DNA of 32,000 nt from Bdellovibrionales bacterium (GTDB taxonomy: Bacteria; Bdellovibrionota; UBA1018): positions 9,481-41,480 of the forward strand of contig JAFEAP010000030.1 of assembly GCA_018266355.1 (NCBI GenBank), read 5' to 3'. Positions 14,776 to 26,513 of this stretch are shown piece by piece (position 1 is the first letter of the stretch; every line of letters starts with the position of its first letter). A program made the translations under genes and the position numbers. The notes beneath the pieces were generated by a model. It worked only from the letters and a program-made list of their open reading frames with translations. It was not told where the DNA came from and searched no databases.

Positions 14776-17730
14776 TCACTTCGCCGAAGCGACGAAGCGT
14801 TTTCCTTCCGCGCATCGCTCGAGGTGATCGCACACCTCGCAGAGCGAGTGGGGATGCGGCTCTCCGGGTTTTCCGCGAAGGATCGTCTCCGCGCGCGCGC
14901 GGAATTCGGCGAGGCGATTCGCCTCGAGCGGAACTTCGATCTCCGTCACCTGACCACCCGCGATATGGATCAAGAGCGCGCGAATCCGCCCGCGAGACTC
15001 CGGCACGAGCCCTTCGAGCGCCCAGGCGTAGAGATTCAGCTGGGTTCGGTAAGTTTCGAGGAGCTCCGCCTCGGACTTCTTCCGGGCGGTCACCTTGAAG
15101 TCGAGGATCGTGAAGGAGCCGTCGGGGTCCCGCACGAGCCGGTCGAGCGCGCCGATGAGCGTTGCCGTATTGCCCGCCGATGCGGGAGCCGCCGCCTGAG
15201 CGTCGCCCGACCGAGGAATCGGAATTTCGAAAGCGAGTTCCTTCCAAGCGACGCGCCCGTCGGTTCCCCGCATCCACGGCGACTCGTTCATCCAGGAGAT
15301 CACGGGACCCGCGCGAAAGACGGATTCGCCGAGGAGTTTCTCGAGCTCGACCAAACCGCCCGGCTCCTCGAGCTCGAGCGCGCGGTGGACGCGGGTCCCG
15401 ATCTCGTTCTGGGCGATCTTCGGCCTCTTCGACGGACGCTCCTCGCGCGCGGCCTCGTACGCCACGAACTCGCGCCACTCCTCTTCCTCGGTCGGCGCGA
15501 TCGGACGGATCACCGACCATTCGTACGCGCGCTCGCAACGCGAAAGAAGATTCCACTCCGAGACGGAATGCCGCGGACGGCGCGGTAAAAACGCCGGCGG
15601 CCCGCCGCGCGGATCCGGGCGCGGTTCGCTCGGCGCCGGACCGATCTCCGGCGCGCGCACGGGCGCGGACCGGCGCGGACGATCCTTCAGCGCCGGTTCG
15701 ATCCATCCCCTCCAAAAATCCACCGTCGTGAAGTCCGCGATTTTCTCGCGGTGTTTCGCGATCTCCTCGCGCTTTTTCTCGTCGTCGGTCGTCGGCAGCA
15801 CGAGGAGCAGGCGCTTCTTCGCGCGGGTGAGCGCGACGTAAAGGACGCGCTTCGATTCGGCGAGTTCTTTCTCGACTTCGAGTTTCTTCCACTCGCTTTC
15901 GACGGCGTCCTTCTTCAGACGGTCCCCGTTCTCGTCCTTTCCGGCGAGGTAAGCCCCGCGCTCGCGGTCCCAAAAGAAAAGCGGCGTCCGCGAGGCCCGT
16001 TTCGTCTTTTCGGGAAAATCGAGCAGGATCACGTGGGGAAACTCGAGTCCCTTCGATCCGTGGACGGTCATCACGCGAAGCTGGCCCGCGTTCCGCGGCG
16101 GCGGCACCGCACGTTCGCGCCGATCCTCGTCGCAGGCGGCGAAGATCCGCTCGGCCACGCGCGGGAAGTCGAGTCCCTCTTCGGTGAGCTCCTCCGCGCG
16201 GTGCCAGAGCGCGAGGACCGCGACGCCGAGGTCCTCCTCGACGAGCGGAAGCTCGAGGAGCGAGAGGAGCACCTCGCCCGGACGTACGCGCCCGGGATGG
16301 AGCTTGAGCGGGCGGAGCAACCGCGCCGCCGGATGATTCGAACGGAGGAACGCGTGAAGCATCCCCGGATCCGTCCGGCGCCACTCCTCGATCTCCGTCT
16401 CGGGAATCCCGATCCACGGCGCGCGCAGGAACGCGACGCCCATGATCTCGTTCGCCGGATTCGCCCACCACCGGAGCAGGCACGCGAGTTCGCGCGCGCG
16501 TGGGTCATTCCAAAGGAGTCCCCCGCTCTCGATCGCGAGCGGAACGCCCGCGGCGGTCAGCGCCTTCAGCCATTTCTCGTTCTTCCCGCGGATCGTCCGA
16601 AGGAGAAGCGCCATATCGGCGAGCGGGACACCGCGCGCGACTTCGTTTTGGATCAGCCGCGCGAGCTCTTCCGGAGAACGCACCTCGGCCGATTCGACGG
16701 GGGCAGTATCCGGGTCATCGACGAGTCCCGGCGTGAGCGCCCGGTAATCCATCCCGCTCGTCGCGAAAGCCGGCGCGCAAACCGCGTTCGAAAATTCGAG
16801 GATGCCCGGTACGCTGCGGAAATTCCTCGTGAGCGCGACTTGGACCGGCATGTGGGAGCAGAACTCCTCGAAGACCGAGACGTCGGCGTCCCGGAACCGG
16901 TAGATCGATTGTTTCGGATCCCCGACCACGCAGAGGTTCGCGAGCCCCGGACGCGCGAGGCGCGTGAGGATCCGCGCTTGGACGGGGTTCGTGTCCTGGA
17001 ATTCGTCGACCATAACGAGATCGAAACGTTTCCGGTAATCCGCGGCAACCGGATCGTGCTCGAGGGCGCGCGCGGCGCCGAGTTCGAGGTCATTGAAGTC
17101 GAGCGCTCCCCGCCGGCGCTTTAGCCGGTCGTATCGTTCGAGCGCGTACTCGGCGAGGAGGCGAAGCTCGGGGGCGTTCTCCATGCGGACGAGCACGCCG
17201 TTCGCCTGGAGATCCCTCACCCGCGCGAGGAGGGCGTAGAGTTCGTTCCGCGTTTCGCGTTCGGACAATCGCGCGAAGGCTTCGTCCACGTCGGGCGGCA
17301 GTTCCTCGAAGAAAAGGCCGTCGAGCGCTTGGGCCCAAAGCGACGCCCCTTCGGTCTCCGAGAGCATGATCTCGTCGCCGTCGAAACCGGCTTCGCGCGG
17401 GTATTCCCGGATGATCGCCGAGCAGAAGCCGTGGATCGTCGTCACGACGTGGCTTTGGAGCGGGCGGCCCTGGAGTTCGAGGGTGAGCCGAGTGAGTTTC
17501 GCGCGGAGATCGCTCGCCGATTTCTCGGTGAACGAGACGGCCGCGAAGCGGGCTTCGGGATTCCGGATCAAGAGCTCGCGGACTTTCCGCACGAGCGTGA
17601 AGGTTTTTCCCGAGCCCGCGCCCGCGAGCACGGCGATCCCCTGCCCCCAGGACTCGACGACTTCCCTCTGCTCGGCCGTGAGATCGCCGGCGGTTTTATC
17701 GTTCGGGTCCTCGCGACGTTCTTCAGTCAT
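14776..17730 (-). CDS. addA: AddA-type ATP-dependent helicase/nuclease: UvrD/PcrA-like SF1 helicase fused to a C-terminal PD-(D/E)XK (Cas4-like, 4-Cys) nuclease
   Basis: 984 aa. The SF1 motifs are readable: Walker A LAGAGSGKT, motif II VMVDEFQDTNPVQ, motif III VGDPKQSIYRFRDAD, LTRNFRS, TVHGSKGLEFPHVIL, and LYVALTRAKKRLLL. The C-terminal nuclease has LDFKVT...QLNLYAWAL and Cys residues at SRCERAY and CEVCDHLERC. Confidence 0.85.
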   Translation of the reverse strand: MTEERREDPNDKTAGDLTAEQREVVESWGQGIAVLAGAGSGKTFTLVRKVRELLIRNPEARFAAVSFTEKSASDLRAKLTRLTLELQGRPLQSHVVTTIHGFCSAIIREYPREAGFDGDEIMLSETEGASLWAQALDGLFFEELPPDVDEAFARLSERETRNELYALLARVRDLQANGVLVRMENAPELRLLAEYALERYDRLKRRRGALDFNDLELGAARALEHDPVAADYRKRFDLVMVDEFQDTNPVQARILTRLARPGLANLCVVGDPKQSIYRFRDADVSVFEEFCSHMPVQVALTRNFRSVPGILEFSNAVCAPAFATSGMDYRALTPGLVDDPDTAPVESAEVRSPEELARLIQNEVARGVPLADMALLLRTIRGKNEKWLKALTAAGVPLAIESGGLLWNDPRARELACLLRWWANPANEIMGVAFLRAPWIGIPETEIEEWRRTDPGMLHAFLRSNHPAARLLRPLKLHPGRVRPGEVLLSLLELPLVEEDLGVAVLALWHRAEELTEEGLDFPRVAERIFAACDEDRRERAVPPPRNAGQLRVMTVHGSKGLEFPHVILLDFPEKTKRASRTPLFFWDRERGAYLAGKDENGDRLKKDAVESEWKKLEVEKELAESKRVLYVALTRAKKRLLLVLPTTDDEKKREEIAKHREKIADFTTVDFWRGWIEPALKDRPRRSAPVRAPEIGPAPSEPRPDPRGGPPAFLPRRPRHSVSEWNLLSRCERAYEWSVIRPIAPTEEEEWREFVAYEAAREERPSKRPKIAQNEIGTRVHRALELEEPGGLVELEKLLGESVFRAGPVISWMNESPWMRGTDGRVAWKELAFEIPIPRSGDAQAAAPASAGNTATLIGALDRLVRDPDGSFTILDFKVTARKKSEAELLETYRTQLNLYAWALEGLVPESRGRIRALLIHIAGGQVTEIEVPLEANRLAEFRARAETILRGKPGEPHPHSLCEVCDHLERCAEGKRFVASAK

Positions 17731-20560
17731 CGCCGCCCCCGCTTCCGTCGCCTTCTTCCTCGTCTCGATCGTCGAGGAACCGCCGCTGACCGCAGGCGTC
17801 CCGCACCAAACACGAATCGCACTCCGCGTACGGCCCGCCCGTTTTCGCCGGTTTCGGAGTCACGTGCACTTCGCCCGAGACGTACCGCCTCGTATGGGCT
17901 TCGATTTCTTCGGCGAGCTTTCCCCAAACCTCTTCCGGCGGCCGATCGACGAGCGAGCTGCTTCGCGCGGTCGTCTTCGTGAGCGTGCCCGGACCTTTCC
18001 CGTTCCACGGCGTGAAGAAAATCCCGCTTCCGCGGGAGCCTTTGCGCGTGAGTTCGATGAATTGGATCCCGAGCGGCGCCTTTTCGAAATGGCGCGCGGC
18101 CGCGAGCGCGTAGATCGGCATCTGCAACCGATACCCGAGGTCGATCATCTGCGGCGCCTTCGGCGAAACCGAAGACGTCTTGTAATCCATGAGGAAGATT
18201 CCGTCGGGATGTTCGTCGATCCGGTCCGGAATGCCCTTGATCGAGACCTGGTCCCTGCCGGCGGGCGAACCCGCGTCGCCGGAAGGAGCCGGACCTAAAT
18301 CGACGACGTACCGAAGCTCCGGTGATTCGAGCGCGAGCACTTTCGTCCGGGCGCGTTCGACGTAAGCGGCTTCCTGAACCATGAACGCTTCGAGGATCGG
18401 ACGTAACTTCCGTTTCGTGAAAGCGGCGAGGCGCTCGCTCTGGAAAAGTCCTTTCGGTCGACGATCCGCCCAGGCCGCGTCGAGCGCCTCATCGGCGGTG
18501 AGCGAGAATCGCCCGGCGTCGTCGCGCGCCTCGATCAAACGGCGGACCGCCTCGTGCAGGAGAGTGCCCCGCGCATCCGGACGCATGTCGAGGTCGGCCG
18601 GCTTGGCCTCCCCGAGCCGCCATCGCCGGAGGAGCAGGCCTTGCATTTCGCAGCGGCTGAAATATTCGAGGTCCGAGGCGCTGAGCTCCGGACGCTCGCC
18701 CGGCCGACCGAGCGGCGAAAGCCGGATCTCCCGCGGCGGTGCCGACGTCGGGTGCAGATAACTCTTCCGCCACCGCGGATGGGAATCCTTTTCGACCGGC
18801 GCGAGCGGTGCCCCGTCCGCGCCGCGGACGCCGAGCTCCTGGATGAGCGGCTCGATCGACTCGCGTTCGCGCCCGTCCCAGTCGTAGAGCGCGTCGAGGA
18901 AAAGTATTTCGCGCGCGTGCGCGAGCCAGAACTTCAAGACCCGGCGCCGGAATTCCGCCTCGTGAATGCCGGAGCGGACTTGGAAATGCCCGGAGAGGAC
19001 TTCGCGTTCGCGATCCGAATAGAAATAATCTCCCGGATTATCGCCCGTCGTATACCTCGGCGGAAGCGCGAGGCACCAGAGCTTCTCCGGATAGGACAGC
19101 GGGGTCTGGCCGAGGCGGAAGATTTCGACGCCGTTCTCGTATTGGATCTTCTCGAAAGGAGGCGTCGCATCCGCGAGCCGGAGCCGAAGCCGCTCGAGCC
19201 AATACAGGATCGGCGCTTTCCGGCGCGCTTCGCCGATCACCGCGAGATCTCCAGCGAACCGCTCCCAAACGGCGGTGAAGAACTCGTGAACCCATGCCTC
19301 GAAATCCGGATTCCTCCGGATCCAAGCGAGGTGGAACCCCGCGACCTCGTCCACGCGGATCCGCGGCGAGAACGCCTCGTTCAAGAGTTCGAGCATCGCG
19401 CGGATCCGTTCGAGCCGGTCGCCCGAGTAGGCGCCGAGCCCGGTTCGGATCCCGCGATCGAGGATCTCCTGGTGCATTTTCCGTTTTTCGGCGAATTCCG
19501 TTTCGGGATTCCCGTCGAGGCGCACCCAGCTCGAATGGAGGAATGAAATCACTTCTTCGTGACGGAATCGGCGCGCGACGACGTCGAGCGGGAGGAGCGC
19601 GACCTTCACGGACTCTTCCCACTTCAACCGCGTCGGATCGCGCGGATCCTTCAGCACGAGTCCCCGTTCGTCGAGCGCGCGCTTCAGGCTGCGGCGTACG
19701 GCCGGCAGATCCGGAAGCAACACGCCGTTCCTTCCGAGCGTGCCGGCGCGGTATTCCTCGAGGAGTCCGTCCGCGAGCCGGTCGCACGTGTCGTCGACCG
19801 TGTGCCACGCCTCCCACGTCGCCGAGAACTCCTCGTCGGGATACGCTCGTTCCATCGTCGCGAACTCGGTCCCGAGCAAGTCGGCGACGAAAATCCGCTC
19901 GACTTCCGTCCGTCTTCCGAGCGCTTCCCAGAGCGCCTCGCCCCGGCTTTCGCCCGTTTTCGCGGAAAGCACCACGATCCGCTCCGGCAGTTCGAGCGGG
20001 ATTTCGGCGGTGCCGAGCACGCCGACGGCGCCGAGGATCAGGCGCGGGAGGTCCCACGCGCGGTTCTCGTCGAGCCACGTCTCATAGGCTTCGATCACCG
20101 CCCGGATCTCGCCGCGCAGGCGTCCGCCTCCGAAGAGTTCCCGGAGTTTTTCTTCCTGGGCCTCGCGTTCCGCGGCGGAGGCGTAGGTCATGCGCGCGGA
20201 TTGGATGGTTCGGTCTAGCTTCTTGTAGAAGTCGCGCTGCCGCTTCAATCGGCGGAGTTCGGGTGCGCGCTCGGGCCCGTTCCTTTCCCATTCGCGCTCG
20301 GAAAGGATCCGTCGCAGGATTTCCTGGCGGGATGGCGCGCCGAGGACGCGGTCGCGTTCGACGAGCGGCCCGAGGACGTGGCGGCAGAGCGAGGCGACGT
20401 CCTGGATCGCGGCCGAGGTGAAACCGCGGCCGCGGGCGAGGTACCGTTCCTTCACTTCCTCACGCGAGATGCCGCTTTCGACGACGATCCACGCGCGCGG
20501 ATCGAGTCCGCCGACGGGAACGGCGTCCAACCGGGCCTCAAGCCGGGGGCTGAATCGCAC
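17723..20560 (-). CDS. addB: AddB-type subunit: degenerate helicase-like N-terminal region + C-terminal PD-(D/E)XK nuclease with Cas4-like 4-Cys motif
   Basis: This long ORF is in the AddB position immediately upstream of addA, with an 8-nt overlap (ATGACTGA at 17723-17730). The C-terminal nuclease has FLMDYKTSS...YRLQMPIYALAA and Cys residues at SRCEMQG and ECDSCLVRDAC. The start is uncertain. I chose GTG at 20560 (AGGAG RBS 7 nt upstream). The ORF track uses TTG at 20596, and TTG at 20530 (GAGG RBS) is also possible. Confidence 0.7.
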   Translation of the reverse strand: MRFSPRLEARLDAVPVGGLDPRAWIVVESGISREEVKERYLARGRGFTSAAIQDVASLCRHVLGPLVERDRVLGAPSRQEILRRILSEREWERNGPERAPELRRLKRQRDFYKKLDRTIQSARMTYASAAEREAQEEKLRELFGGGRLRGEIRAVIEAYETWLDENRAWDLPRLILGAVGVLGTAEIPLELPERIVVLSAKTGESRGEALWEALGRRTEVERIFVADLLGTEFATMERAYPDEEFSATWEAWHTVDDTCDRLADGLLEEYRAGTLGRNGVLLPDLPAVRRSLKRALDERGLVLKDPRDPTRLKWEESVKVALLPLDVVARRFRHEEVISFLHSSWVRLDGNPETEFAEKRKMHQEILDRGIRTGLGAYSGDRLERIRAMLELLNEAFSPRIRVDEVAGFHLAWIRRNPDFEAWVHEFFTAVWERFAGDLAVIGEARRKAPILYWLERLRLRLADATPPFEKIQYENGVEIFRLGQTPLSYPEKLWCLALPPRYTTGDNPGDYFYSDREREVLSGHFQVRSGIHEAEFRRRVLKFWLAHAREILFLDALYDWDGRERESIEPLIQELGVRGADGAPLAPVEKDSHPRWRKSYLHPTSAPPREIRLSPLGRPGERPELSASDLEYFSRCEMQGLLLRRWRLGEAKPADLDMRPDARGTLLHEAVRRLIEARDDAGRFSLTADEALDAAWADRRPKGLFQSERLAAFTKRKLRPILEAFMVQEAAYVERARTKVLALESPELRYVVDLGPAPSGDAGSPAGRDQVSIKGIPDRIDEHPDGIFLMDYKTSSVSPKAPQMIDLGYRLQMPIYALAAARHFEKAPLGIQFIELTRKGSRGSGIFFTPWNGKGPGTLTKTTARSSSLVDRPPEEVWGKLAEEIEAHTRRYVSGEVHVTPKPAKTGGPYAECDSCLVRDACGQRRFLDDRDEEEGDGSGGGDD

Positions 20561-21341
20561 GCATGAACTCCTGGTAGGCGTTTTCGAAGATCGCAAGGCC
20601 CTGTCCGGGCGCGTTCGCCCGTTGGGGCGCCGTCGTCCATTCGGGATGCGCCGTCCACCGGATGAAACTCTCCGGATGCGGCATGATGCCGAGGATCCGT
20701 CCGCTCAGGTCGCAAAGCCCGGCGATGTTCTCGTCGCTGCCGATCGGGTTCCCCTCGTATTTCAGGCAGTGGAGTCCCCGCCGCTGGAGCTTCACGAGGG
20801 TTTCCGTTTTGCGGTTCGGATGGATCACGATACGCGCCTCGGGATGCCGGAGCGGGAGATCGACGACGCCGAGGCCCCGAAGCCAGGTGCACGTCATGCC
20901 GATCGGCGCGACCTTCACCCATCCCTGGAGCGAACGCCCGCCCGCCCCGGCCGGCGAAGCCGTCCCGCCGTTCGAGGTCACCGAGATCTCGCGTCCGAAA
21001 ACGCCGAGCCGGATGAGCGTGTGGAACCCGCTGCCGATGCCGATCACCATCCCGCCGCGCGCGGCGTACCCGGTGAGCGTCCATCCGAGCAGGTGTTGGA
21101 TCTTGAGCGCGAGAAGCTTTCCGCTTCCGAGTTCGTCGGCGGTCGAAGCGCCGCCCGGGATAGCGAGCACCGCGTACTCCTCGGAGAGCCGTTCTTCGCG
21201 ATACCCTTCGGCGACGAGGTCGGCGAGGTTCCGAAGGTGCACTTCGAAGCCCGCGGTCGCGAAGGCTTGGGCCGTTTCGTTTTCGCTCAGGATACCGGGT
21301 CCGCGGAGCACGAGGACGCGCGGCCGTTTCACGTCGCTCAT
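20538..21341 (-). CDS. PurQ-like class-I glutamine amidotransferase-fold protein lacking the canonical nucleophilic Cys (FGAM synthase glutaminase-subunit homologue, probably not a conventional glutaminase)
   Basis: The real start is the ATG at 21341 (MSDVKRPRVLVLRGPG...), with a GGGAGGG RBS and an ATGA overlap with the upstream stop. This gives 267 aa. The upstream 96 codons of the tracked ORF are Arg-rich shadow. PurQ-like landmarks are present: IPGGASTADE (cf. PGGFSYGD), NPIGSDENIAGL and GIMPHPES (His-Glu of the triad). The nucleophile elbow reads VIGIGSGFHTL instead of G-x-C-N-G-F-Q. Confidence 0.8.
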   Translation of the reverse strand: MSDVKRPRVLVLRGPGILSENETAQAFATAGFEVHLRNLADLVAEGYREERLSEEYAVLAIPGGASTADELGSGKLLALKIQHLLGWTLTGYAARGGMVIGIGSGFHTLIRLGVFGREISVTSNGGTASPAGAGGRSLQGWVKVAPIGMTCTWLRGLGVVDLPLRHPEARIVIHPNRKTETLVKLQRRGLHCLKYEGNPIGSDENIAGLCDLSGRILGIMPHPESFIRWTAHPEWTTAPQRANAPGQGLAIFENAYQEFMRAIQPPA

Positions 21342-24300
21342 TCCCAGTAACCCTCCCGCTTCCACGCCTGGCGGAGCACCTTCGTCTCGATCACGAGCGA
21401 AGGCGTTTCGCCGCGACGGATCTGCACGACGCCGGTACCGGTGACCGTTCCGAGCCGAATGAACGGGATTTCGTTCGCGGCGAATTCGGTCTCGACGAGC
21501 GCGGCGTCGATTTCGCCGACGGAAACCACTAGCCCGTGGAAGCCCTCGCCGAAGAGGAATTCCCATTCCGCCGTGCGCGGCAGCCCCTCGGGGTATTGGA
21601 GCGCGACGCCCATGCCGCGGGCGATGCACCCTTCGGCGATGGCCGTGACGAGTCCGCCGTCGGAGACGTCGTGGATCGAGCGCAGCTTCTTCTGTTCCTT
21701 ACCGATCGCTCCGCCGAGCCACGCGTAAAGACGCCGGGCGGTGTCCCACTCCGGCGTCGGCGAGGTCGCGTCGGGCGGAACCGCGCCGTAAACTTCGGCG
21801 ACGAGCGAACCGGTCAAGCCGAATCGCGCGGGACCGAGAAGGTAGACGGCGTCGCCGGGGGTCTTGAAGTCGGCGCTGCGGATGCCCGCGACTTTCGTCG
21901 TGCGCGCGATCGATTGGACGACGAAGTGGAGCTTCGAATTCTGGCCGACGATCGTCTGCTGCGCGCCGTGAACGAAGGGGGTCTGGAGCTCGATCGCCGC
22001 ACGGGTCGCGCCCATGCACGCGCGGACGAGTCCGCCGCGCTGGTTCGCGTCCTGCAAATCCTTCGCGGGACAGGAGAATTGGTAGGTCAGCGCGAAAAGG
22101 AAGTCTTCCTTTCCGTAGTCTGCGCCGCACGCGATCGCGTTCCGCACGGCTTCGTCCGCGGCGAGCGCGCCCATCAGATAAGGATCGACGGCCGCCGCGC
22201 GCGGCGCGAGTCCCGTCGCGACGATGAGGCCGGCGTTCGACTGGGGTTTGAGCTTGAGCGCTCCGCCGTCGTTCGGACCGGAGTGACTCACCTCGGGCGA
22301 GACGGAAGCGACATGGAGGGGCTTGAGCGCGCTCGTGCCCTGGACCTCGTGATCGATCTGGCGAATCAGCCACTCGCGCGAACACACGTTCGGATGGCTC
22401 AGGATCCGGAGCAGCGTTTCGACGCCTTCCTTCGCGGGATCCCCCCACTCGATCGCGCGCGGGGCGCCCGGCTTCGGAGCGGGTTTCGCGCGCGTGATTT
22501 CCTCGTGCGCGCGCGGCTGGCTGCCGCGCAAGAACTTCGTATCGACGTCGACGATCCATTCTTCGCCCGCCGTCTCCGGCGCGCGCATTTGGATCCGTCC
22601 GCTCGCTCGAACCGCTCCGATCTCGGCGCCGACCATCCCCCGGCGGGACGCGAGCCCGACGACCGCTTCGACCCGCTCCTCGGGCACGATCGCGACGATC
22701 CGTTCGGCGGTTTCCGAACCGAGGATTTCCATCGGGCGCAGGCCCGAGATCTTCGTCGGCACGCGGTCGAGGTCGATCTCGACGCCGCCGAATTCGCGGG
22801 CGATTCGGGCGGCGACGCTGGCGATTCCCCCTTCGCCGCACGGGAAGAAGACCCGGTTCCAACCGAGGTCGCGCACTTCGGCGACGAGCGCCGAGAGCGA
22901 ATGCAAGAGCGTCGTATCGCAAATCTGGACGTTCGGGGTGCCGAGCATCCCCTCTTTTCCGGTCGCGGATCCGAGGATCACGAGGCGATCGCCCGCCGAG
23001 GCTTCGCGCGTTTCCGAGGGGATCCCGCCCGCGATCCGCGGAACGAGCGAGAGCGCCGAAAAGTGCGCGACCGGAGTCACGCCTTCCTTCGCGTCGAGGT
23101 AGAGCGCGCCGCCGATCGTGGGCACGCCGAGCTGGGCGCCCGCTTTCGCGATCCCGGTCTTCACGCCGTCGAGGACGCGGCGGGGATGGAGGTGGTCCTG
23201 CCCCTGGGGGACGGGGGCGTGCAGGTCGGCGGAAAAAATCACGTCGGTCGCGAGGATCGGCTTCGCGCCCCGGCCGGCGCAGATCGCGCGCAGGTAGGTT
23301 TCCGCATAGCCCATGAGCGAACCGTAGGTCGCGTCGGAGGCTACCGTCCGCGACTCGATCTCGGTTTCGACGGAGAGCAGGTCCTCCTCGTCGTACTGGA
23401 GGAGGCTCGCGCCGTTCTCGAACGCCGAGACCACCCAAGCGCGCGGGACTTCCCGCGTCGATTCTCGGAAGGTCCCCTCGATGAGGCCGTTCAGTTTCTC
23501 GGGCAGCGGCGGACCGAGCGCTTCGTCGACCTCGCGCGCGAATTCGTCCGGGACGATTTCGGCGCGCATCAGCCGCCGGAACGGAACCGAACGCCAAACC
23601 TTAGAAATCAACTCGAGCTCGACGTCCGTGACGTCGCGTTCGAAGCCGGCGCGAATCGCCTCGACCTCGTTCTCGGCGAAGGAGAATCCCTTGCGTTTGC
23701 AGAACTGCGCGACTTCCGCGTTCGTAAGGCTTCCGACCGCGAGCCGTTCGATCGGCGCGTGAAACCGGGCGGGAGCGGACTTCGGCATCTCGCGTTTCAC
23801 GCGTTCGGGATGGAAGCGCTCGGTGTGCGAGATCTCTTTTTCGGTGAGCAGGGTCCAGCTTTCGAGGAGTTCGTTCGAGAAATACTCGCGCGCGATCCGC
23901 GCGAGGTGCTCCTCGGTGAGTTGCGGGCCTTCGAGAAGGAGCATCGACCCGGTCGCGACGCGCGCTTCGGGTCCGAGCTTGCGCTTGAGCACCGCTTCGA
24001 AGGATTCGACGAGCGTGCGCGAAGCGTGGTCCGTCACGCCGAGACGGAAGCGCTTCTCGAGGGCGAAGAATTTCCCCGGCCGGTTCGGCGCCGTTTCGAG
24101 CAGATCCTCGACGTTCCCGCGCTTGCCCGCGGCGGACGGGATGAGGTTTCCGGTGAAAAGCCAGTGCAGGACGGAATCCCACAGGGTTTCCTGCGACGCG
24201 AAGATGAGCTCTTCGCGCGTAAGCGGCAGATCGAGCCAATACACGGTCATCGACCGCACCCACCGTACGAGTTTCCGCAGGTGCGGATCGGTCATCTCCA

Positions 24301-24373
24301 TCCGACGGAGAAGCGGCCCGGCCAAAGGGTCGGCATACTCGGGTTTCAGGGCGACTTCGATGCGCGCGAACAT
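21338..24373 (-). CDS. Fused PurS-PurS-PurL-like protein (FGAM synthase synthetase-subunit homologue) with a divergent N-terminal active-site half
   Basis: 1011 aa. There are two N-terminal PurS-like modules (ARIEVALKPEYADPLAG..., RFRLGVTDHASRT...), followed by a duplicated AIR-synthase-related (PurM-like) architecture. The second half is well conserved (DPYLMGALAADEAVRNAIACGA, IHDVSDGGLVTAIAEG). First-half motifs are replaced: WSEHC becomes WRSVP, and E(S/T)HNHPS becomes ETEIESR. Confidence 0.8.
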   Translation of the reverse strand: MFARIEVALKPEYADPLAGPLLRRMEMTDPHLRKLVRWVRSMTVYWLDLPLTREELIFASQETLWDSVLHWLFTGNLIPSAAGKRGNVEDLLETAPNRPGKFFALEKRFRLGVTDHASRTLVESFEAVLKRKLGPEARVATGSMLLLEGPQLTEEHLARIAREYFSNELLESWTLLTEKEISHTERFHPERVKREMPKSAPARFHAPIERLAVGSLTNAEVAQFCKRKGFSFAENEVEAIRAGFERDVTDVELELISKVWRSVPFRRLMRAEIVPDEFAREVDEALGPPLPEKLNGLIEGTFRESTREVPRAWVVSAFENGASLLQYDEEDLLSVETEIESRTVASDATYGSLMGYAETYLRAICAGRGAKPILATDVIFSADLHAPVPQGQDHLHPRRVLDGVKTGIAKAGAQLGVPTIGGALYLDAKEGVTPVAHFSALSLVPRIAGGIPSETREASAGDRLVILGSATGKEGMLGTPNVQICDTTLLHSLSALVAEVRDLGWNRVFFPCGEGGIASVAARIAREFGGVEIDLDRVPTKISGLRPMEILGSETAERIVAIVPEERVEAVVGLASRRGMVGAEIGAVRASGRIQMRAPETAGEEWIVDVDTKFLRGSQPRAHEEITRAKPAPKPGAPRAIEWGDPAKEGVETLLRILSHPNVCSREWLIRQIDHEVQGTSALKPLHVASVSPEVSHSGPNDGGALKLKPQSNAGLIVATGLAPRAAAVDPYLMGALAADEAVRNAIACGADYGKEDFLFALTYQFSCPAKDLQDANQRGGLVRACMGATRAAIELQTPFVHGAQQTIVGQNSKLHFVVQSIARTTKVAGIRSADFKTPGDAVYLLGPARFGLTGSLVAEVYGAVPPDATSPTPEWDTARRLYAWLGGAIGKEQKKLRSIHDVSDGGLVTAIAEGCIARGMGVALQYPEGLPRTAEWEFLFGEGFHGLVVSVGEIDAALVETEFAANEIPFIRLGTVTGTGVVQIRRGETPSLVIETKVLRQAWKREGYWE

Positions 24374-24479: not shown

Positions 24480-24707
24480 ATGAGTCAGAAAGACAGCAGT
24501 CCCGTGACGGGTGTGATCGAGGAAAATCTCGTGATCCTGGATTTCGGTAAGTACGAAGGCAAGTCGGTCGAAGAAATCGCCCGCCTCGATCCGGAGTTCT
24601 ACGACAAGCTCGCTTCCGAAAAGGAGAACGGAGTCTTCGCGATCCGCCGTCAGCGCGACAAGACCTTCCGCCTTTACGTGAATCCGCTCTCGAACATGGA
24701 TCACTAG
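24480..24707 (+). CDS. Small DUF3820-like protein (the family sometimes annotated 'putative quorum-sensing-regulated virulence factor' / exodeoxyribonuclease X C-terminal-like)
   Basis: 75 aa from the ATG at 24480 (MSQKDSS...); the ORF-track start at 24444 is a TTG. The core LDFGKYEGKSVEEIARLDPEFYDKL resembles the F-G-K-Y-K-G...Y..W/L signature of that small-protein family. Confidence 0.55.
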   Translation: MSQKDSSPVTGVIEENLVILDFGKYEGKSVEEIARLDPEFYDKLASEKENGVFAIRRQRDKTFRLYVNPLSNMDH

Positions 24708-24792: not shown

Positions 24793-26433
24793 CTAGAGGA
24801 TCAGCGAAGCCATCGGCATACCGACGAGCCATCCGCCCCAAGACTGGGAAAGGACGCGCGCGATTTGCGGGATGCGCTTCTGGGCGTCCTTTTCGGAGAG
24901 CCCTTTGAGTTCAGGGAAAAGGGTTTCGTACTTCTTCACGTCCCACTTGATCGCCCGTCCGGCGGTGAAATCGTGGTACGGCTTCGGCTTGCTCCAGGTT
25001 TTCTCGCCTTTCGCGTTCAGGACGGATTTCCCGTCCTTGTCCACGATCTCGACGGTCATCGTCCGGTTATAGGGAGCGGTATCGAAACCGTCCTTCAGCG
25101 GGAAGAGGTCGACGAGCGACTTCGGAGCGGAATGGTAGAAAGACGCGAGATCGATCTTCGCGCTCTCGTTCGAAACGACGGCGCTCGTGACCCCGTCGAC
25201 CTTGCTTCCGTCCTTCGCCGTATTCGAGTAAGTCTTGTCGACCGTCGTGACGTACGAAAGGTTATGCAGCCCCGTCGTCATCATGCGGGCGATCGGAGTC
25301 GTGCCGCGCGGATCGAGGAGGTTTCCGAACGTGCTCTCGTCGTTTTGGCGGCGGCGAAGCTCGGCCCAGCTATAAGAGGCTTCGGCGACCGCCCATTTCA
25401 GGTCGGCGTACGCGGAGTTCATCCAGCCTTGGCCGCCTTCGCGAAGATCGAAGAGCCCGGTCCGATTGTTCTGCGCGCGCAGGACGTCGAAACGCACGCG
25501 ATCGGTCGTGACTTCCGGGTTGTAGCGGAACGCGCTTCCGTAACCGAACTTCTTCGAAAGGGTGTCGATCGCGCTGAAGAGGCCGTTCAAGTTATAGGCG
25601 TTCAAGCTGCAAAGCGAGCTGAGCGCGTAGTGCACGTTCGAAAGCGCCGCGTGGCGCTCGGCTTCGCCCATCCGGATGAACCGGTCTTGGTCGCTGAAGA
25701 AGTCGGCGTCGGCGTAAAAGATCTTCGCGTCGAAATAGACGGTCTTGTTCGCGAAATTCAGCGCGTGGAGGCGATCGCGCGCCTTCCCGAGTTTCGGACG
25801 GACTTCGTTGTTCAAGAAGTCGTGGAATTCGAGCTCGTTCGTGATCGGTTTACCGGTCCCGGTGTTCGGGACGGTGAGGTACTTCATCCCCGCTTTCCAC
25901 TGGTCGGTCGGGAGGTAGGTCATCACGCCCGCTCCGACGGCGCGCAGGGTGGCCACGGCGCCGAGGCGCGTGATCGGCGTCGGCTCGATCCAGTCGATCG
26001 CGCGATTGAAGAAACCGTTGAACGCGATGAGCGGCGCCATTTGGGCGGCCGCGAACTTCGCGTCGTCGCCGAGCGTGTTGTAAAAGGCGTCGTTATCGAG
26101 ATCACGGAGAATCGAGTGGAGATCTTCCGGCGTCTTCGCGGCGAACACGCGTTTGCGAAGAGCGATGAAGGAATCCGAGAAGTTCGTGGTCTCGTTCCGC
26201 GACTCGGTGGTAGCGACTTTGCGCCCTCCGCGCTCCTCGGCGGCGGCGATCGCGGCCTGGTACTCTTCCGCGCTCGGCGGCGGCATCACTTCGGGGGCCG
26301 GGCCCGCCGGAGTGCTCTTCACCGTGGTTTTCGCGACGGTTTTCGCGACGGTTTTCGCGGTGGCGGCTCCGGCCGAAACGGCGAAACCGAGGAACAAAAA
26401 GGTCGCGAGCGAACGAGACGTGAATTTTTTCAT
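24793..26433 (-). CDS. Secreted hypothetical protein (no family recognised)
   Basis: I prefer the ATG at 26433 (MKKFTSRSLATFLFLGFAVSAGA signal peptide; GGAGAGGG RBS upstream), giving 546 aa. Composition is ordinary and not shadow-like. A short AKTV tandem repeat follows the signal peptide. I could not identify any catalytic motif. Confidence 0.65.
   Translation of the reverse strand: MKKFTSRSLATFLFLGFAVSAGAATAKTVAKTVAKTTVKSTPAGPAPEVMPPPSAEEYQAAIAAAEERGGRKVATTESRNETTNFSDSFIALRKRVFAAKTPEDLHSILRDLDNDAFYNTLGDDAKFAAAQMAPLIAFNGFFNRAIDWIEPTPITRLGAVATLRAVGAGVMTYLPTDQWKAGMKYLTVPNTGTGKPITNELEFHDFLNNEVRPKLGKARDRLHALNFANKTVYFDAKIFYADADFFSDQDRFIRMGEAERHAALSNVHYALSSLCSLNAYNLNGLFSAIDTLSKKFGYGSAFRYNPEVTTDRVRFDVLRAQNNRTGLFDLREGGQGWMNSAYADLKWAVAEASYSWAELRRRQNDESTFGNLLDPRGTTPIARMMTTGLHNLSYVTTVDKTYSNTAKDGSKVDGVTSAVVSNESAKIDLASFYHSAPKSLVDLFPLKDGFDTAPYNRTMTVEIVDKDGKSVLNAKGEKTWSKPKPYHDFTAGRAIKWDVKKYETLFPELKGLSEKDAQKRIPQIARVLSQSWGGWLVGMPMASLIL
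26322..26357. repeat. Imperfect 12-bp tandem repeat (about 3 copies, c(g/c)(a/g)(c/t)ggttttcg) inside the CDS, encoding AKTVAKTVAKTT
   Basis: Read directly from the sequence: ccgtggttttcg / cgacggttttcg / cgacggttttcg at 26322-26357. Confidence 0.6.
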
Positions 26434-26513
26434 CGAGAAAGCCCTCTCCATTGGCCTGCATAAATTTTGGAGGCCGGAGGAATAGTTTTCAACTTAAAAC
26501 AAAACCGAAGAGA

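What the first reader, a model, noticed from the sequence alone, without database searches (positions are those of the whole stretch)
21338..24373. PurS-PurS-PurL fusion whose FGAR/ATP active-site motifs are substituted while the auxiliary half stays conserved
The 1011-aa protein has the fused architecture seen in some delta-type lineages. The signature residues of the catalytic (N-terminal) PurM-like half are replaced. W-S-E-H-C becomes W-R-S-V-P; the His equivalent is Val263, at 23585-23587. E-(S/T)-H-N-H-P-S becomes E-T-E-I-E-S-R; the His equivalents are Glu338 (23360-23362) and Glu340. I cannot find the acidic residue of the GGIIRD motif or of the QD(L/M)GAGG motif (here FPCGEGG). From my recollection of the Thermotoga maritima PurL structural and mutational work, the two histidines (His32/His72 in that numbering) are essential. 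In contrast, the C-terminal pseudo-symmetric half keeps its canonical motifs (DPYLMGALAADEAVRNAIACGA, IHDVSDGGL). Together with the Cys-less PurQ-like partner, this looks like an intact, selected but non-canonical FGAM-synthase-like complex.
Basis: partly seen in the sequence, partly recalled or inferred. Interest (0 to 1): 0.75.

Follow-up and report, generated by a model that had tools for sequence, protein, structure and literature searches.

The report
Dead FGAM synthase pair, kept
In this predatory-bacterium lineage the other purine-synthesis genes of one operon have been deleted, yet the two genes for one enzyme of that pathway survive with all their catalytic residues gone and are still strongly conserved, which points to a second, non-catalytic job that nobody has described.

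Summary
ORF 21338-24373(-) is a 1011-aa PurS-PurS-PurL fusion. A profile alignment shows its FGAR/ATP-site residues are replaced: H32V, K68E, H72E, N73S, D94A, D236P, and the catalytic loop is deleted. The auxiliary-site motifs are kept. The overlapping PurQ-like gene (20538-21341) has Gly in place of the nucleophile Cys.

The pair is the positional orthologue of purSL-purQ in a Bdellovibrionota operon, dapF/exoX_C/purF-C-D-N-SL-Q-H-M-addB-addA. In the window and in about 25 related loci, purF, purD, purN, purH and purM are gone from the locus. A purC-like or purH gene survives in a few of them.

Among 86 loci, motif loss tracks loss of the neighbouring pur genes, with graded intermediates, in several lineages that look independent. 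The genes are not decaying. dN/dS is 0.07-0.13, equal to or lower than for addB and addA.

Constraint has moved to the PurS-like N-terminal domain, subdomains A2 and B2, and PurQ. These keep lineage-specific residues that active enzymes of other phyla lack.

Best reading: a pseudoenzyme complex kept for an unknown non-catalytic role. That role is not tied to addBA adjacency. Loss of the purine pathway across the whole genome was not tested.

The parts
21338..24373 (-). PurSL-like pseudoenzyme gene (1011 aa): tandem PurS-like N-terminal domain, linker, then PurM-like subdomains A1-B1-A2-B2
   Evidence: Identical to NCBI MAG protein JST04_18180 (Bdellovibrionales bacterium).
23774..24373 (-). 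N-terminal domain (aa 1-200), two beta-alpha-beta-alpha-beta PurS-like repeats. This is the most constrained part of the protein.
   Evidence: hhalign 99.7% to PF02700-bearing PurSL N-terminal domains. dN/dS 0.04-0.07. 94% of canonical-invariant columns kept. AF2 secondary structure.
24074..24160 (-). Family-specific insert in the N-terminal domain (aa 72-100, LFTGNLIPSAAGK...RPG), nearly invariant in both active and dead family members
   Evidence: Gapped or only weakly aligned in the PF02700-bearing PurSL (P0079-P0085). Still present in the most decayed ~800-aa forms.
23024..23773 (-). Linker plus A1 subdomain (aa 201-450) carrying the degenerate motifs: WSEHC->WRSVP (V263 at 23585-23587), KxETHN->ETEIES (E336, E338, E340 at 23354-23368), NRD->LRA (A363 at 23285-23287)
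   Evidence: Identity to active relatives is 23% (linker) and 32% (A1), against 54% and 87% among active ones.
22454..23023 (-). B1 subdomain (aa 451-640): catalytic C-loop deleted (site at aa 479/480); TDNGAGG -> FPCGEGG (P511 at 22841-22843)
21341..22453 (-). A2-B2 half (aa 641-1011) with the auxiliary-nucleotide-site motifs kept: GPND (D702), DPY..DEAVRN (D730, E741, N745), HDVSDGG (D902)
   Evidence: Invariant columns. B2 keeps 100% and A2 61% of canonical-invariant columns. The auxiliary ADP is described as structural in PMC13013826.
20538..21341 (-). PurQ-like pseudo-glutaminase (267 aa). ATGA overlap with the PurSL-like stop. Nucleophile Cys -> Gly103 (21033-21035). His222 and Glu224 kept.
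   Evidence: dN/dS 0.065-0.087.
17723..20560 (-). addB-like gene (PD-(D/E)XK). Probable GTG start at 20560, overlapping the purQ-like 3' end by 23 nt.
   Evidence: The same 23-nt overlap occurs in L001, L002 and L005.
14776..17730 (-). addA-like gene (UvrD helicase plus PD-(D/E)XK nuclease)
24480..24707 (+). Divergently transcribed 75-aa ExoX-like_C protein. It marks the upstream boundary of the ancestral pur operon.
   Evidence: Same gene at the same place in canonical loci (L003, L004) and degenerate loci (L001, L002, L005).

Best explanation
The two genes are what remains of the purSL-purQ (FGAM synthase) genes of an ancestral Bdellovibrionota operon: dapF / exoX_C-like / purF-purC-purD-purN-purSL-purQ-purH-purM-addB-addA.

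In this lineage purF, C, D, N, H and M were deleted from the locus. De novo purine synthesis was presumably abandoned (inferred, not shown).

Both active sites of FGAM synthase then lost their catalytic residues. Both proteins nevertheless stayed full length and under strong purifying selection.

They most likely still assemble into a PurSL-like/PurQ-like complex that holds a structural nucleotide in the auxiliary site. That complex would carry out a non-catalytic role (scaffold, adaptor or regulator) which already existed in the active enzyme of this phylum.

The role appears to reside in the PurS-like N-terminal domain, the A2/B2 half and PurQ, that is, the glutaminase-side half of the complex. 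The nature of the role is not known.

Shown: homology, positional orthology, loss of catalytic residues, selection, the shift of constraint between domains, and recurrence.

Inferred: lack of activity, complex formation, nucleotide binding, genome-wide pathway loss, and the existence of a moonlighting function.
For: 1. Catalytic death.
- hmmalign against active relatives gives H32V, K68E, H72E, N73S, D94A and D236P.
- The C-loop is deleted.
- PurQ Cys is replaced by Gly.
- NCBIfam PurL and PurQ equivalog scores are far below cut-off.

2. Positional orthology.
- Canonical loci L003 and L004 read dapF - exoX_C - purF-C-D-N-SL-Q-H-M - addB - addA.
- The window and L001, L002, L005 and L006 read exoX_C (or other upstream genes) - purSL-like - purQ-like - addB - addA - OMP - TPR.

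3. Correlation across 86 loci.
- Every locus with the pur neighbours has intact motifs and PurQ Cys.
- Every locus without them is degenerate.
- Graded intermediates exist: L032, L067, L037/38/40, L027.

4. Recurrence.
- An AddB tree places the degenerate loci in at least five separate positions.
- The Cys replacements differ between lineages (Gly, Ala, Ser).

5. Selection.
- dN/dS is 0.07-0.13 for PurSL-like (every domain below 0.26) and 0.065-0.087 for PurQ-like.
- AddB gives 0.09-0.16 and AddA 0.07-0.15 in the same genome pairs.
- A second degenerate lineage (L065/L069) gives 0.070 and 0.035.

6. Constraint shift in PurSL.
- Of 232 columns invariant in 40 active family members, degenerate proteins keep 94-100% in B2 and 75-100% in the N-terminal domain, but 25-57% in A1.
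- Active PurSL of other phyla show the reverse: A1 80-100%, B2 59-71%.
- Across the wide degenerate clade, invariant positions are 26% (N-terminal domain), 32% (B2) and 18% (A2), against 4-6% in linker, A1 and B1. No clade-specific invariant lies in the old pocket.

7. Constraint shift in PurQ.
- PurQ-like keeps 70-92% of 64 invariants, against 78-80% in active PurQ of other phyla.
- Hits recur at glutaminase-site positions in different lineages.

8. Extreme forms.
- The ~800-aa forms (P0137-P0142) keep only the N-terminal domain recognisably, plus weak similarity to the C-terminal part in some.
- Where the downstream gene could be read (P0139 and P0143 loci) it is a GATase_5 gene; in the P0137 locus the downstream ORF is cut by the contig end.

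9. Structure.
- The AF2 model has pLDDT 90.6 and matches large PurL at TM 0.8.
Against: - No biochemical data exist.
- Genome-wide absence of the other pur genes, or of a second unfused purL, was not tested. Only +/-10 kb around each gene could be read.
- The PurSL-seeded scans can only find loci that kept the gene. An AddB-seeded scan found 6 of about 26 related addBA loci with no pur or pur-like genes nearby. The pair is therefore not universally retained, or lies elsewhere in those genomes.
- The trees are neighbour-joining without support values, so the exact number of independent events is uncertain.
- Complex formation and nucleotide binding are inferred from conservation only.
- The retained role is not identified.
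Confidence: 0.72

Rival explanations
1. Neofunctionalised enzyme. The pair has evolved a new catalytic activity, for example using the auxiliary nucleotide site as a new ATP site, or the His-Glu dyad of PurQ-like with another nucleophile.
For: - Strong purifying selection on all domains within the close clade, including A1 (dN/dS 0.05-0.11).
- Auxiliary-site acidic and Asn residues are invariant.
- PHPE is retained in nearly all PurQ-like proteins.
Against: - The auxiliary-site residues are equally invariant in the active enzymes, where the ADP is considered structural (PMC13013826). This is retention, not gain.
- The 13 clade-specific invariant residues do not lie in the old pocket, and no shared new motif appears across independent degenerate lineages.
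- The residue at the Cys position is Gly or Ala in most lineages, and the neighbouring Ser is not conserved.
- Glutamine-pocket positions (F62, S63, D66, S70, N101, Q104) are hit repeatedly.
- A1, B1 and linker share only 4-6% invariant positions across the wide clade.
Confidence: 0.1
2. Retention for the sake of addBA. The ORFs persist because addB and addA are transcribed and translationally coupled through them, or because the proteins are accessory subunits of AddAB.
For: - In the window and in most degenerate loci, purQ-like overlaps addB. The overlap is a conserved 23 nt in the window, L001, L002 and L005.
- The four genes stay together even where upstream synteny is broken (L006, the P0074 locus).
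- The pur-addBA linkage is specific to this phylum, as are the retained N-terminal-domain and B2 features.
Against: - Translational coupling cannot explain dN/dS of about 0.07 over 1278 codons.
- In the P0139 locus the decayed pair is followed by a pseudouridine synthase gene on the opposite strand, not by addBA.
- In L037, L038 and L040 other DNA is inserted between purQ-like and addB; in L038 it encodes a Hint-domain gene.
- Related addBA operons exist in unrelated contexts without the pair.
Confidence: 0.1
3. Still a working FGAM synthase with an unorthodox active site, or an ammonia-dependent one.
For: - The overall fold, Glu70 and Arg93 equivalents, and the auxiliary site are kept.
- In the mildest intermediates (L037, L038, L040) the PurSL motifs are nearly intact while only PurQ is dead. 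This could be an NH3-dependent enzyme.
Against: - For the window protein, H32, K68, H72, N73, D94 and D236 are all replaced and the FGAR-binding C-loop is deleted.
- The six other pur genes of the operon are absent from the locus.
- Different degenerate lineages carry unrelated residues at these positions.
Confidence: 0.03
4. Genes in slow decay with no function (recent pseudogenisation not yet visible as frameshifts).
For: - The recent intermediates (L032, L067, L084) differ from active enzymes at only 12-22 of 232 invariant columns. They could simply be young losses.
- Some related addBA loci have no such genes nearby.
Against: - For the window clade, dS between members is 0.8-1.6 with dN/dS 0.07-0.13, and there are no stops or frameshifts in more than 20 orthologues spanning 42-88% identity.
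- Substitutions are concentrated in specific domains rather than spread evenly.
Confidence: 0.05

Closest known systems
Canonical fused PurSL plus PurQ FGAM synthase of Bdellovibrionota (e.g. P0054 / L003, P0040 / L004)
   Same: - Same architecture: tandem PurS-like N-terminal domain with the family-specific insert, linker, A1-B1-A2-B2.
- Same separate GATase_5 partner with overlapping stop and start.
- Same chromosomal position between exoX_C-like and addBA.
- 38-45% (PurSL) and about 55% (PurQ) identity.
   Different: - All FGAR/ATP-site residues and the C-loop are lost.
- The PurQ nucleophile is lost.
- purF, C, D, N, H and M are missing from the operon.
- The A1 subdomain falls from 87% to 32% identity.
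Large PurL (Salmonella StPurL, PDB 1T3T; human PFAS, 9N9W)
   Same: - Best structural match of the AF2 model: TM 0.79-0.80 over about 1080 columns.
- N-terminal domain equivalent to a PurS dimer.
- Pseudo-twofold synthetase domain with an auxiliary ADP site.
   Different: - The glutaminase is a separate polypeptide here.
- 17-18% sequence identity.
- No catalytic residues.
- In large PurL and the PurS/PurL/PurQ complex the N-terminal domain is the least conserved domain (PMC3815217). Here it is the most conserved.
Gammaherpesvirus vGAT / vFGAMS pseudoenzymes (ORF75, BNRF1)
   Same: PFAS/FGAM-synthase homologues that lack the catalytic triad, fail to complement purine synthesis, and are kept for a non-metabolic role (PMC7605207). 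This is the only described precedent for a dead FGAM synthase under selection.
   Different: - Viral, captured from the host, single polypeptide.
- Act as tegument and immune-evasion proteins together with the host's active PFAS.
- No specific sequence relationship: TIGR01739 scores 63 bits against a cut-off of 716.
- The bacterial pair arose in place from the organism's own enzyme, and apparently without an active paralogue.
Small PurL-PurQ-PurS complex (T. maritima 3D54; T. thermophilus 3VIU)
   Same: Homologous subunits. The complex needs PurS and a nucleotide in the auxiliary site.
   Different: Three separate, catalytically active proteins. The window protein aligns to them only from about aa 310 onward, at 22-29% identity.

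Membership tests
FGAM synthase subunit PurL (NCBIfam TIGR01736 / NF002290 equivalogs) | Score at or above the curated equivalog cut-off | tested here: not met
   227.1 bits vs 648, and 218.7 bits vs 525.75
FGAM synthase subunit PurL (NCBIfam TIGR01736 / NF002290 equivalogs) | Catalytic His residues (Tm His32 in WSEHC, His72 in ESHNHPS) | tested here: not met
   V263 and E340 by hmmalign to an HMM of active relatives, also by MAFFT. The essential role of these residues is taken from T. maritima mutagenesis as I recall it (Morar et al. 2006), which I did not re-read. The H296 gate role in StPurL is in PMC7124931.
FGAM synthase subunit PurL (NCBIfam TIGR01736 / NF002290 equivalogs) | ATP/Mg ligands (Tm Lys68, Glu70, Asp94, Asp236) and the FGAR-binding C-loop | tested here: not met
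   K68E, D94A and D236P; only Glu70 (E338) and Arg93 (R362) are kept. The C-loop is shortened by 13-16 residues.
FGAM synthase subunit PurL (NCBIfam TIGR01736 / NF002290 equivalogs) | Duplicated PurM-like fold (A1-B1-A2-B2) with auxiliary-site motifs | tested here: met
   Pfam AIRS and AIRS_C, two stretches each. AF2 and Foldseek match to 1T3T and 3VIU. Invariant D702, D730, E741, N745 and D902.
FGAM synthase subunit PurL (NCBIfam TIGR01736 / NF002290 equivalogs) | FGAR-to-FGAM activity / complementation of a purL mutant | not testable with these tools
   Requires an experiment.
FGAM synthase subunit PurQ (TIGR01737 / NF002252; class I glutamine amidotransferase) | Cys-His-Glu triad and equivalog score | tested here: not met
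   Cys -> Gly103; His222 and Glu224 are kept. Scores are 84.9 vs 298 and 65.4 vs 177.8 bits. The fold-level Pfam GATase_5 is met (130 bits vs 27).
PurS / large-PurL N-terminal domain (PF02700) | Match to the PurS model; tandem PurS-like repeats | tested here: inconclusive
   No PF02700 hit even at E<=1. However, hhalign gives 99.7% to the N-terminal domains of PF02700-bearing PurSL, the AF2 model shows two beta-alpha-beta-alpha-beta repeats, and the full-length structure aligns to large PurL. Homology is therefore met although the Pfam threshold is not.
Pseudoenzyme (catalytically dead homologue kept by selection) | Homology to an enzyme with loss of key catalytic residues | tested here: met
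Pseudoenzyme (catalytically dead homologue kept by selection) | Purifying selection / long-term retention of the intact ORF | tested here: met
   dN/dS 0.07-0.13 (PurSL-like) and 0.065-0.087 (PurQ-like), equal to or lower than addB and addA. More than 20 intact orthologues.
Pseudoenzyme (catalytically dead homologue kept by selection) | Demonstrated lack of the ancestral activity and a defined non-catalytic function | not testable with these tools
   Requires biochemistry and genetics.
Herpesvirus vFGAMS / vGAT (TIGR01739) | Score at or above the family cut-off | tested here: not met
   62.8 bits vs 716.1. The resemblance is in principle only.

The most novel reading that the evidence does not exclude
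FGAM synthase of Bdellovibrionota has a second, non-catalytic function. It is carried by the PurS-like N-terminal domain (with its phylum-specific insert), the A2/B2 half and PurQ. The function is important enough that the complex has been kept, catalytically dead at both sites, through several seemingly independent losses of the neighbouring purine-synthesis genes. In the most decayed forms only the N-terminal domain, a remnant of the C-terminal part and the PurQ partner remain recognisable. This would be the first cellular (non-viral) FGAM-synthase pseudoenzyme and a natural dissection of a moonlighting function.
Probability: 0.5. Interest if true: 0.78.

Novelty: new variant of a known kind. 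Interest (0 to 1): 0.66.

Why it matters
Dead enzymes kept by selection show that a protein has a function beyond catalysis. Here nature has repeated the experiment: several lineages deleted the neighbouring purine-synthesis genes, killed both active sites of FGAM synthase, and still kept the two proteins as tightly constrained as the DNA-repair genes next to them.

The pattern of what is kept shows where to look for the hidden function. The kept parts are the PurS-like adaptor domain (normally the least conserved part of the enzyme), the auxiliary-nucleotide half and the glutaminase scaffold.

Three practical consequences follow:
- Genome-based metabolic reconstruction will wrongly score these organisms as having purL and purQ. 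JGI already names relatives 'phosphoribosylformylglycinamidine synthase'.
- The loci give a graded series for studying how operons and active sites decay.
- The case offers a bacterial counterpart to the herpesviral PFAS-like pseudoenzymes.

Tried and rejected
- Anti-phage defence. PADLOC gave no hit for either protein or for the upstream 552-aa ORF. Only generic UvrD/GajB-like hits appeared for AddA. Rejected.
- Riboswitch or other RNA upstream. Rfam at gathering thresholds on the window and five loci found nothing.
- Ser nucleophile in PurQ-like (an S51-peptidase-like Ser-His-Glu triad). Rejected: the Cys column is Gly. The Ser is at +1 and is Ala or Asn in relatives.
- Fusion scar of purM at the 3' end of purQ-like. 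No similarity found.
- Paralogue next to an active copy. Among the 80 best GTDB loci no assembly appears twice, and fused PurSL of other phyla at 26-30% identity were still listed. This argues against a second fused copy. It does not exclude an unfused small purL.
- Standalone or differently fused copies of the N-terminal domain. An exhaustive phmmer search of 1.84 billion representatives found only 58 hits: PurSL-type proteins, fragments, or short tandem-PurS-like proteins. This gave no functional clue.
- Literature. Searches for Bdellovibrio purine synthesis or auxotrophy and for FGAM-synthase pseudoenzymes found no report of this.
- Genome-wide pur inventory.

Full report
**1. What is in the window**

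The ORF 21338-24373 on the minus strand encodes 1011 aa. Pfam finds two AIRS_C and two weak AIRS stretches plus a sub-threshold FGAR-AT linker.

NCBIfam recognises PurL, but far below the equivalog cut-offs: 227 vs 648 bits and 219 vs 526 bits. PDB sequence matches are to small and large PurL only.

The protein is identical to an NCBI MAG protein, 'Bdellovibrionales bacterium JST04_18180'.

The next gene starts at the ATG at 21341, overlapping the stop in the sequence ATGA. It is a 267-aa GATase_5 (PurQ-type) protein.

It is followed by:
- addB-like, with a probable GTG start at 20560 and a 23-nt overlap
- addA-like
- an OMP beta-barrel gene
- two TPR genes

Upstream, a 75-aa ExoX-like_C gene (24480-24707, plus strand) is transcribed divergently. 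There are no other pur genes in the 32 kb.

**2. Check of the residue claims**

I aligned the protein to an HMM built only from catalytically canonical relatives. These were small PurL, fused PurSL of other phyla, and the active fused PurSL of the same phylum. The result, in T. maritima numbering:

| T. maritima residue | Window residue |
|---|---|
| H32 | V263 |
| K68 | E336 |
| E70 | E338 (kept) |
| H72 | E340 |
| N73 | S341 |
| H74 | R342 |
| R93 | R362 (kept) |
| D94 | A363 |
| D236 | P511 |

MAFFT gives the same picture.

Glu338 is the Glu70 equivalent. The conclusion is unchanged.

The FGAR-binding catalytic loop is also shortened by 13-16 residues.

The motifs of the pseudo-symmetric second half are invariant across 76 family members: GPND, DPY...DEAVRN and HDVSDGG. 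In active enzymes this half holds an ADP-Mg that is regarded as structural (PMC13013826).

In the PurQ-like protein, GICNGFQ has become GIGSGFH. The nucleophile column is Gly103. The adjacent Ser is not conserved. PHPE is kept.

The N-terminal 200 residues have no Pfam PurS hit. They nevertheless match the N-terminal domains of PF02700-bearing PurSL at 99.7% hhalign probability. They fold as two beta-alpha-beta-alpha-beta repeats in an AF2 model with pLDDT 90.6. That model superposes on Salmonella large PurL over about 1080 columns, TM 0.8.

**3. Where it comes from**

The homology search found about 77 proteins of roughly 1000-1100 aa from Bdellovibrionota/Oligoflexia MAGs.

Most keep the canonical motifs: TWSEHCKHK, ETHNSPS, GVNRD and TDNGAGG. 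The window's clade (P0001-P0023, P0025, P0030) and a few other branches do not.

Gene neighbourhoods explain the difference.
- Active members (L003, L004) lie in an operon: dapF - exoX_C-like(-) - purF - purC - purD - purN - purSL - purQ - purH - purM - addB - addA, with overlapping stops and starts.
- Degenerate members (L001, L002, L005, L006, the P0074 locus, the window) read: exoX_C-like(-) or other upstream genes - purSL-like - purQ-like - addB - addA - OMP - TPR.

The pair is thus the positional orthologue of purSL-purQ. It was left in place when the six other pur genes were deleted.

**4. How general the pattern is**

A scan of one genome per GTDB species returned 80 loci. I annotated them by tblastn with the L003 proteins and read out the motif columns.

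Every locus with the pur neighbours has intact PurSL motifs and PurQ Cys. Every locus lacking them is degenerate. There are graded intermediates:

| Locus | Neighbours | PurSL motifs | PurQ |
|---|---|---|---|
| L037, L038, L040 | dapF-purC-purSL-purQ...addBA | almost intact | Cys -> Gly or Ala (plus His -> Arg in L037 and L038) |
| L032 | purH and purM gone (upstream cut by the contig end) | WSEYY / EAHDSPS / TGNGAGG | Cys kept |
| L067 | purH kept, purM lost | WSEHY / TNNGAGG | Cys kept |
| L027 | pur neighbours gone | degenerate (WSEAA) | Cys -> Ser |

An AddB tree, which is an independent marker, places degenerate loci in at least five separate positions among active ones. It is a neighbour-joining tree without support values.

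No assembly among the 80 appears twice.

**5. Are the genes decaying?**

They are not. Values are for the window against its 77-88% identical relatives, with dS 0.8-1.6:

| Gene or domain | dN/dS |
|---|---|
| PurSL-like, whole gene | 0.07-0.13 |
| PurSL-like, N-terminal domain | 0.04-0.07 |
| PurSL-like, A1 | 0.05-0.11 |
| PurSL-like, B1 | 0.10-0.25 |
| PurQ-like | 0.065-0.087 |
| AddB (same genome pairs) | 0.09-0.16 |
| AddA (same genome pairs) | 0.07-0.15 |

Another degenerate lineage (L065 vs L069) gives 0.070 for PurSL-like and 0.035 for PurQ-like, with AddB at 0.082.

**6. What is being conserved**

Identity of the window protein to active family members, compared with identity among active members:

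| Domain | Window vs active | Active vs active |
|---|---|---|
| N-terminal domain | 57% | 69% |
| B2 | 45% | 53% |
| A2 | 41% | 71% |
| A1 | 32% | 87% |
| B1 | 30% | 74% |
| Linker | 23% | 54% |

I took the 232 columns that are invariant in 40 active family members and asked how many each group keeps:

| Group | B2 | N-terminal domain | A2 | A1 | B1 |
|---|---|---|---|---|---|
| Clearly degenerate lineages (L027 and beyond) | 94-100% | 75-100% | 44-72% | 25-57% | 26-62% |
| Active PurSL of other phyla | 59-71% | 62-81% | 81-91% | 80-100% | 79-97% |

The dead proteins therefore keep phylum-specific, non-catalytic features and lose the universal catalytic ones.

Across the wide degenerate clade (42-88% identity), invariant positions are 26% of the N-terminal domain, 32% of B2 and 18% of A2. 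They are only 4-6% of the linker, A1 and B1. None of the 13 clade-specific invariant residues lies in the former pocket.

PurQ-like keeps 70-92% of 64 invariant columns, against 78-80% in active PurQ of other phyla. Independent lineages are hit repeatedly at the same glutaminase-site positions: C100, N15, C16, F62, S63, D66, S70, N101, Q104, F126 and H155.

An exhaustive search with the N-terminal domain alone found only 58 hits in 1.84 billion representatives. They include about 800-aa proteins (P0137-P0142). In these the N-terminal domain, with its family-specific insert, is still about 40% identical. The rest is barely recognisable. A GATase_5 gene overlaps the stop in the two such loci where the downstream gene could be read (P0139 and P0143). 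In the P0137 locus the downstream ORF is cut by the contig end.

In large PurL and the PurS/PurL/PurQ complex generally, the N-terminal domain is the least conserved domain. It buries more surface against the glutaminase (1919 Å²) than against the synthetase (1033 Å²) (PMC3815217).

The conserved parts here (N-terminal domain, A2/B2 and PurQ) correspond to the glutaminase-side half of the complex.

**7. Relation to addBA**

The tight packing with addB is inherited from the ancestral operon, where purM overlaps addB.

An AddB-seeded metagenome scan is not biased towards loci that kept purSL. Among related addBA loci it found:
- 17 preceded by purM
- 3 preceded by purQ-like
- 6 in unrelated contexts with no pur-like genes

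In the P0139 locus the decayed pair is not followed by addBA. Retention of the pair is therefore not explained by addBA adjacency. Equally, the pair is not indispensable for addBA.

**8. Interpretation**

The best-supported reading is a pseudoenzyme complex. Both active sites of FGAM synthase are dead. The fold, the structural nucleotide site and the PurSL-PurQ partnership are kept. The complex serves a non-catalytic role that predates the loss of catalysis and is specific to this phylum.

What that role is remains unknown. I found no evidence for:
- a new active site
- a defence system
- an RNA element
- any published description

The only described precedent for a dead FGAM-synthase homologue kept by selection is the herpesviral vGAT/ORF75 family (PMC7605207). 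That family is unrelated in origin and setting.

**9. Main caveats**

- Genome-wide absence of the purine pathway and of an unfused purL could not be checked.
- All functional statements are inferred from sequence.
- The trees lack support values.
- The PurSL-seeded searches cannot see lineages that lost the pair altogether.

Noticed in passing
L003 1504-22300; L004; L016; L021 and others: In Bdellovibrionota eight pur genes and addB-addA form one tightly packed gene string, purF-C-D-N-SL-Q-H-M-addB-addA, with overlapping stops and starts. It is bounded upstream by a divergent 75-aa ExoX-like_C gene and dapF. The pur-addBA linkage is absent from the fused-PurSL loci of other phyla that I read (L075, L076).
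   Followed up: partly
L038 8808-9989; L037; L040; L043; L048; loci of P0137 and P0139: A purC-like ORF (393-421 aa) is kept directly upstream of the dead purSL-like gene in several degenerate lineages. It has only a weak SAICAR_synt match (31 bits) or no Pfam hit. It may be a third retained pseudoenzyme.
   Followed up: partly
window 24074-24160 (aa 72-100 of the PurSL-like protein): There is a nearly invariant family-specific insert (W-LFTGNLIPSAAGK-x-G-x-x-DL-x-E-x-AP-x-RPG) between the two PurS-like repeats. It is present in active and dead members and in the most decayed ~800-aa forms. It is gapped or only weakly aligned in the PF02700-bearing PurSL (P0079-P0085).
   Followed up: partly
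L038 13949-15220 (minus strand): A 423-aa Hint-domain protein gene is inserted between purQ-like and addB in one intermediate lineage.
   Followed up: no
L013 5274-7952: The addB-like gene of this MAG contig has an in-frame stop at codon 325. This may be a sequencing error or a pseudogene.
   Followed up: no
window 24793-26451 (minus strand): A 552-aa ORF just beyond the ExoX_C-like gene has no Pfam, NCBIfam or PADLOC hit. In relatives dapF or other genes occupy this position.
   Followed up: no
window 20538-20560: The probable addB GTG start overlaps the purQ-like 3' end by 23 nt. The same overlap length is seen in L001, L002 and L005, which share only 42-61% PurSL identity with the window.
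   Followed up: partly
PurSL column of aa 764 (window Y764; canonical D764-N765): A canonical-invariant Asp in A2 (the ...VDNFCWP... motif) is replaced in different degenerate lineages by different residues: Tyr in the window clade, His in L032, Ser in L067. This suggests that this A2 residue belongs to the catalytic apparatus.
   Followed up: no
one search hit list (P0003, P0006, P0009 and others): Public annotations (JGI) name the dead proteins 'phosphoribosylformylglycinamidine synthase' or 'PurSL'. Automated metabolic reconstructions will therefore count a step that is almost certainly absent.
   Followed up: no
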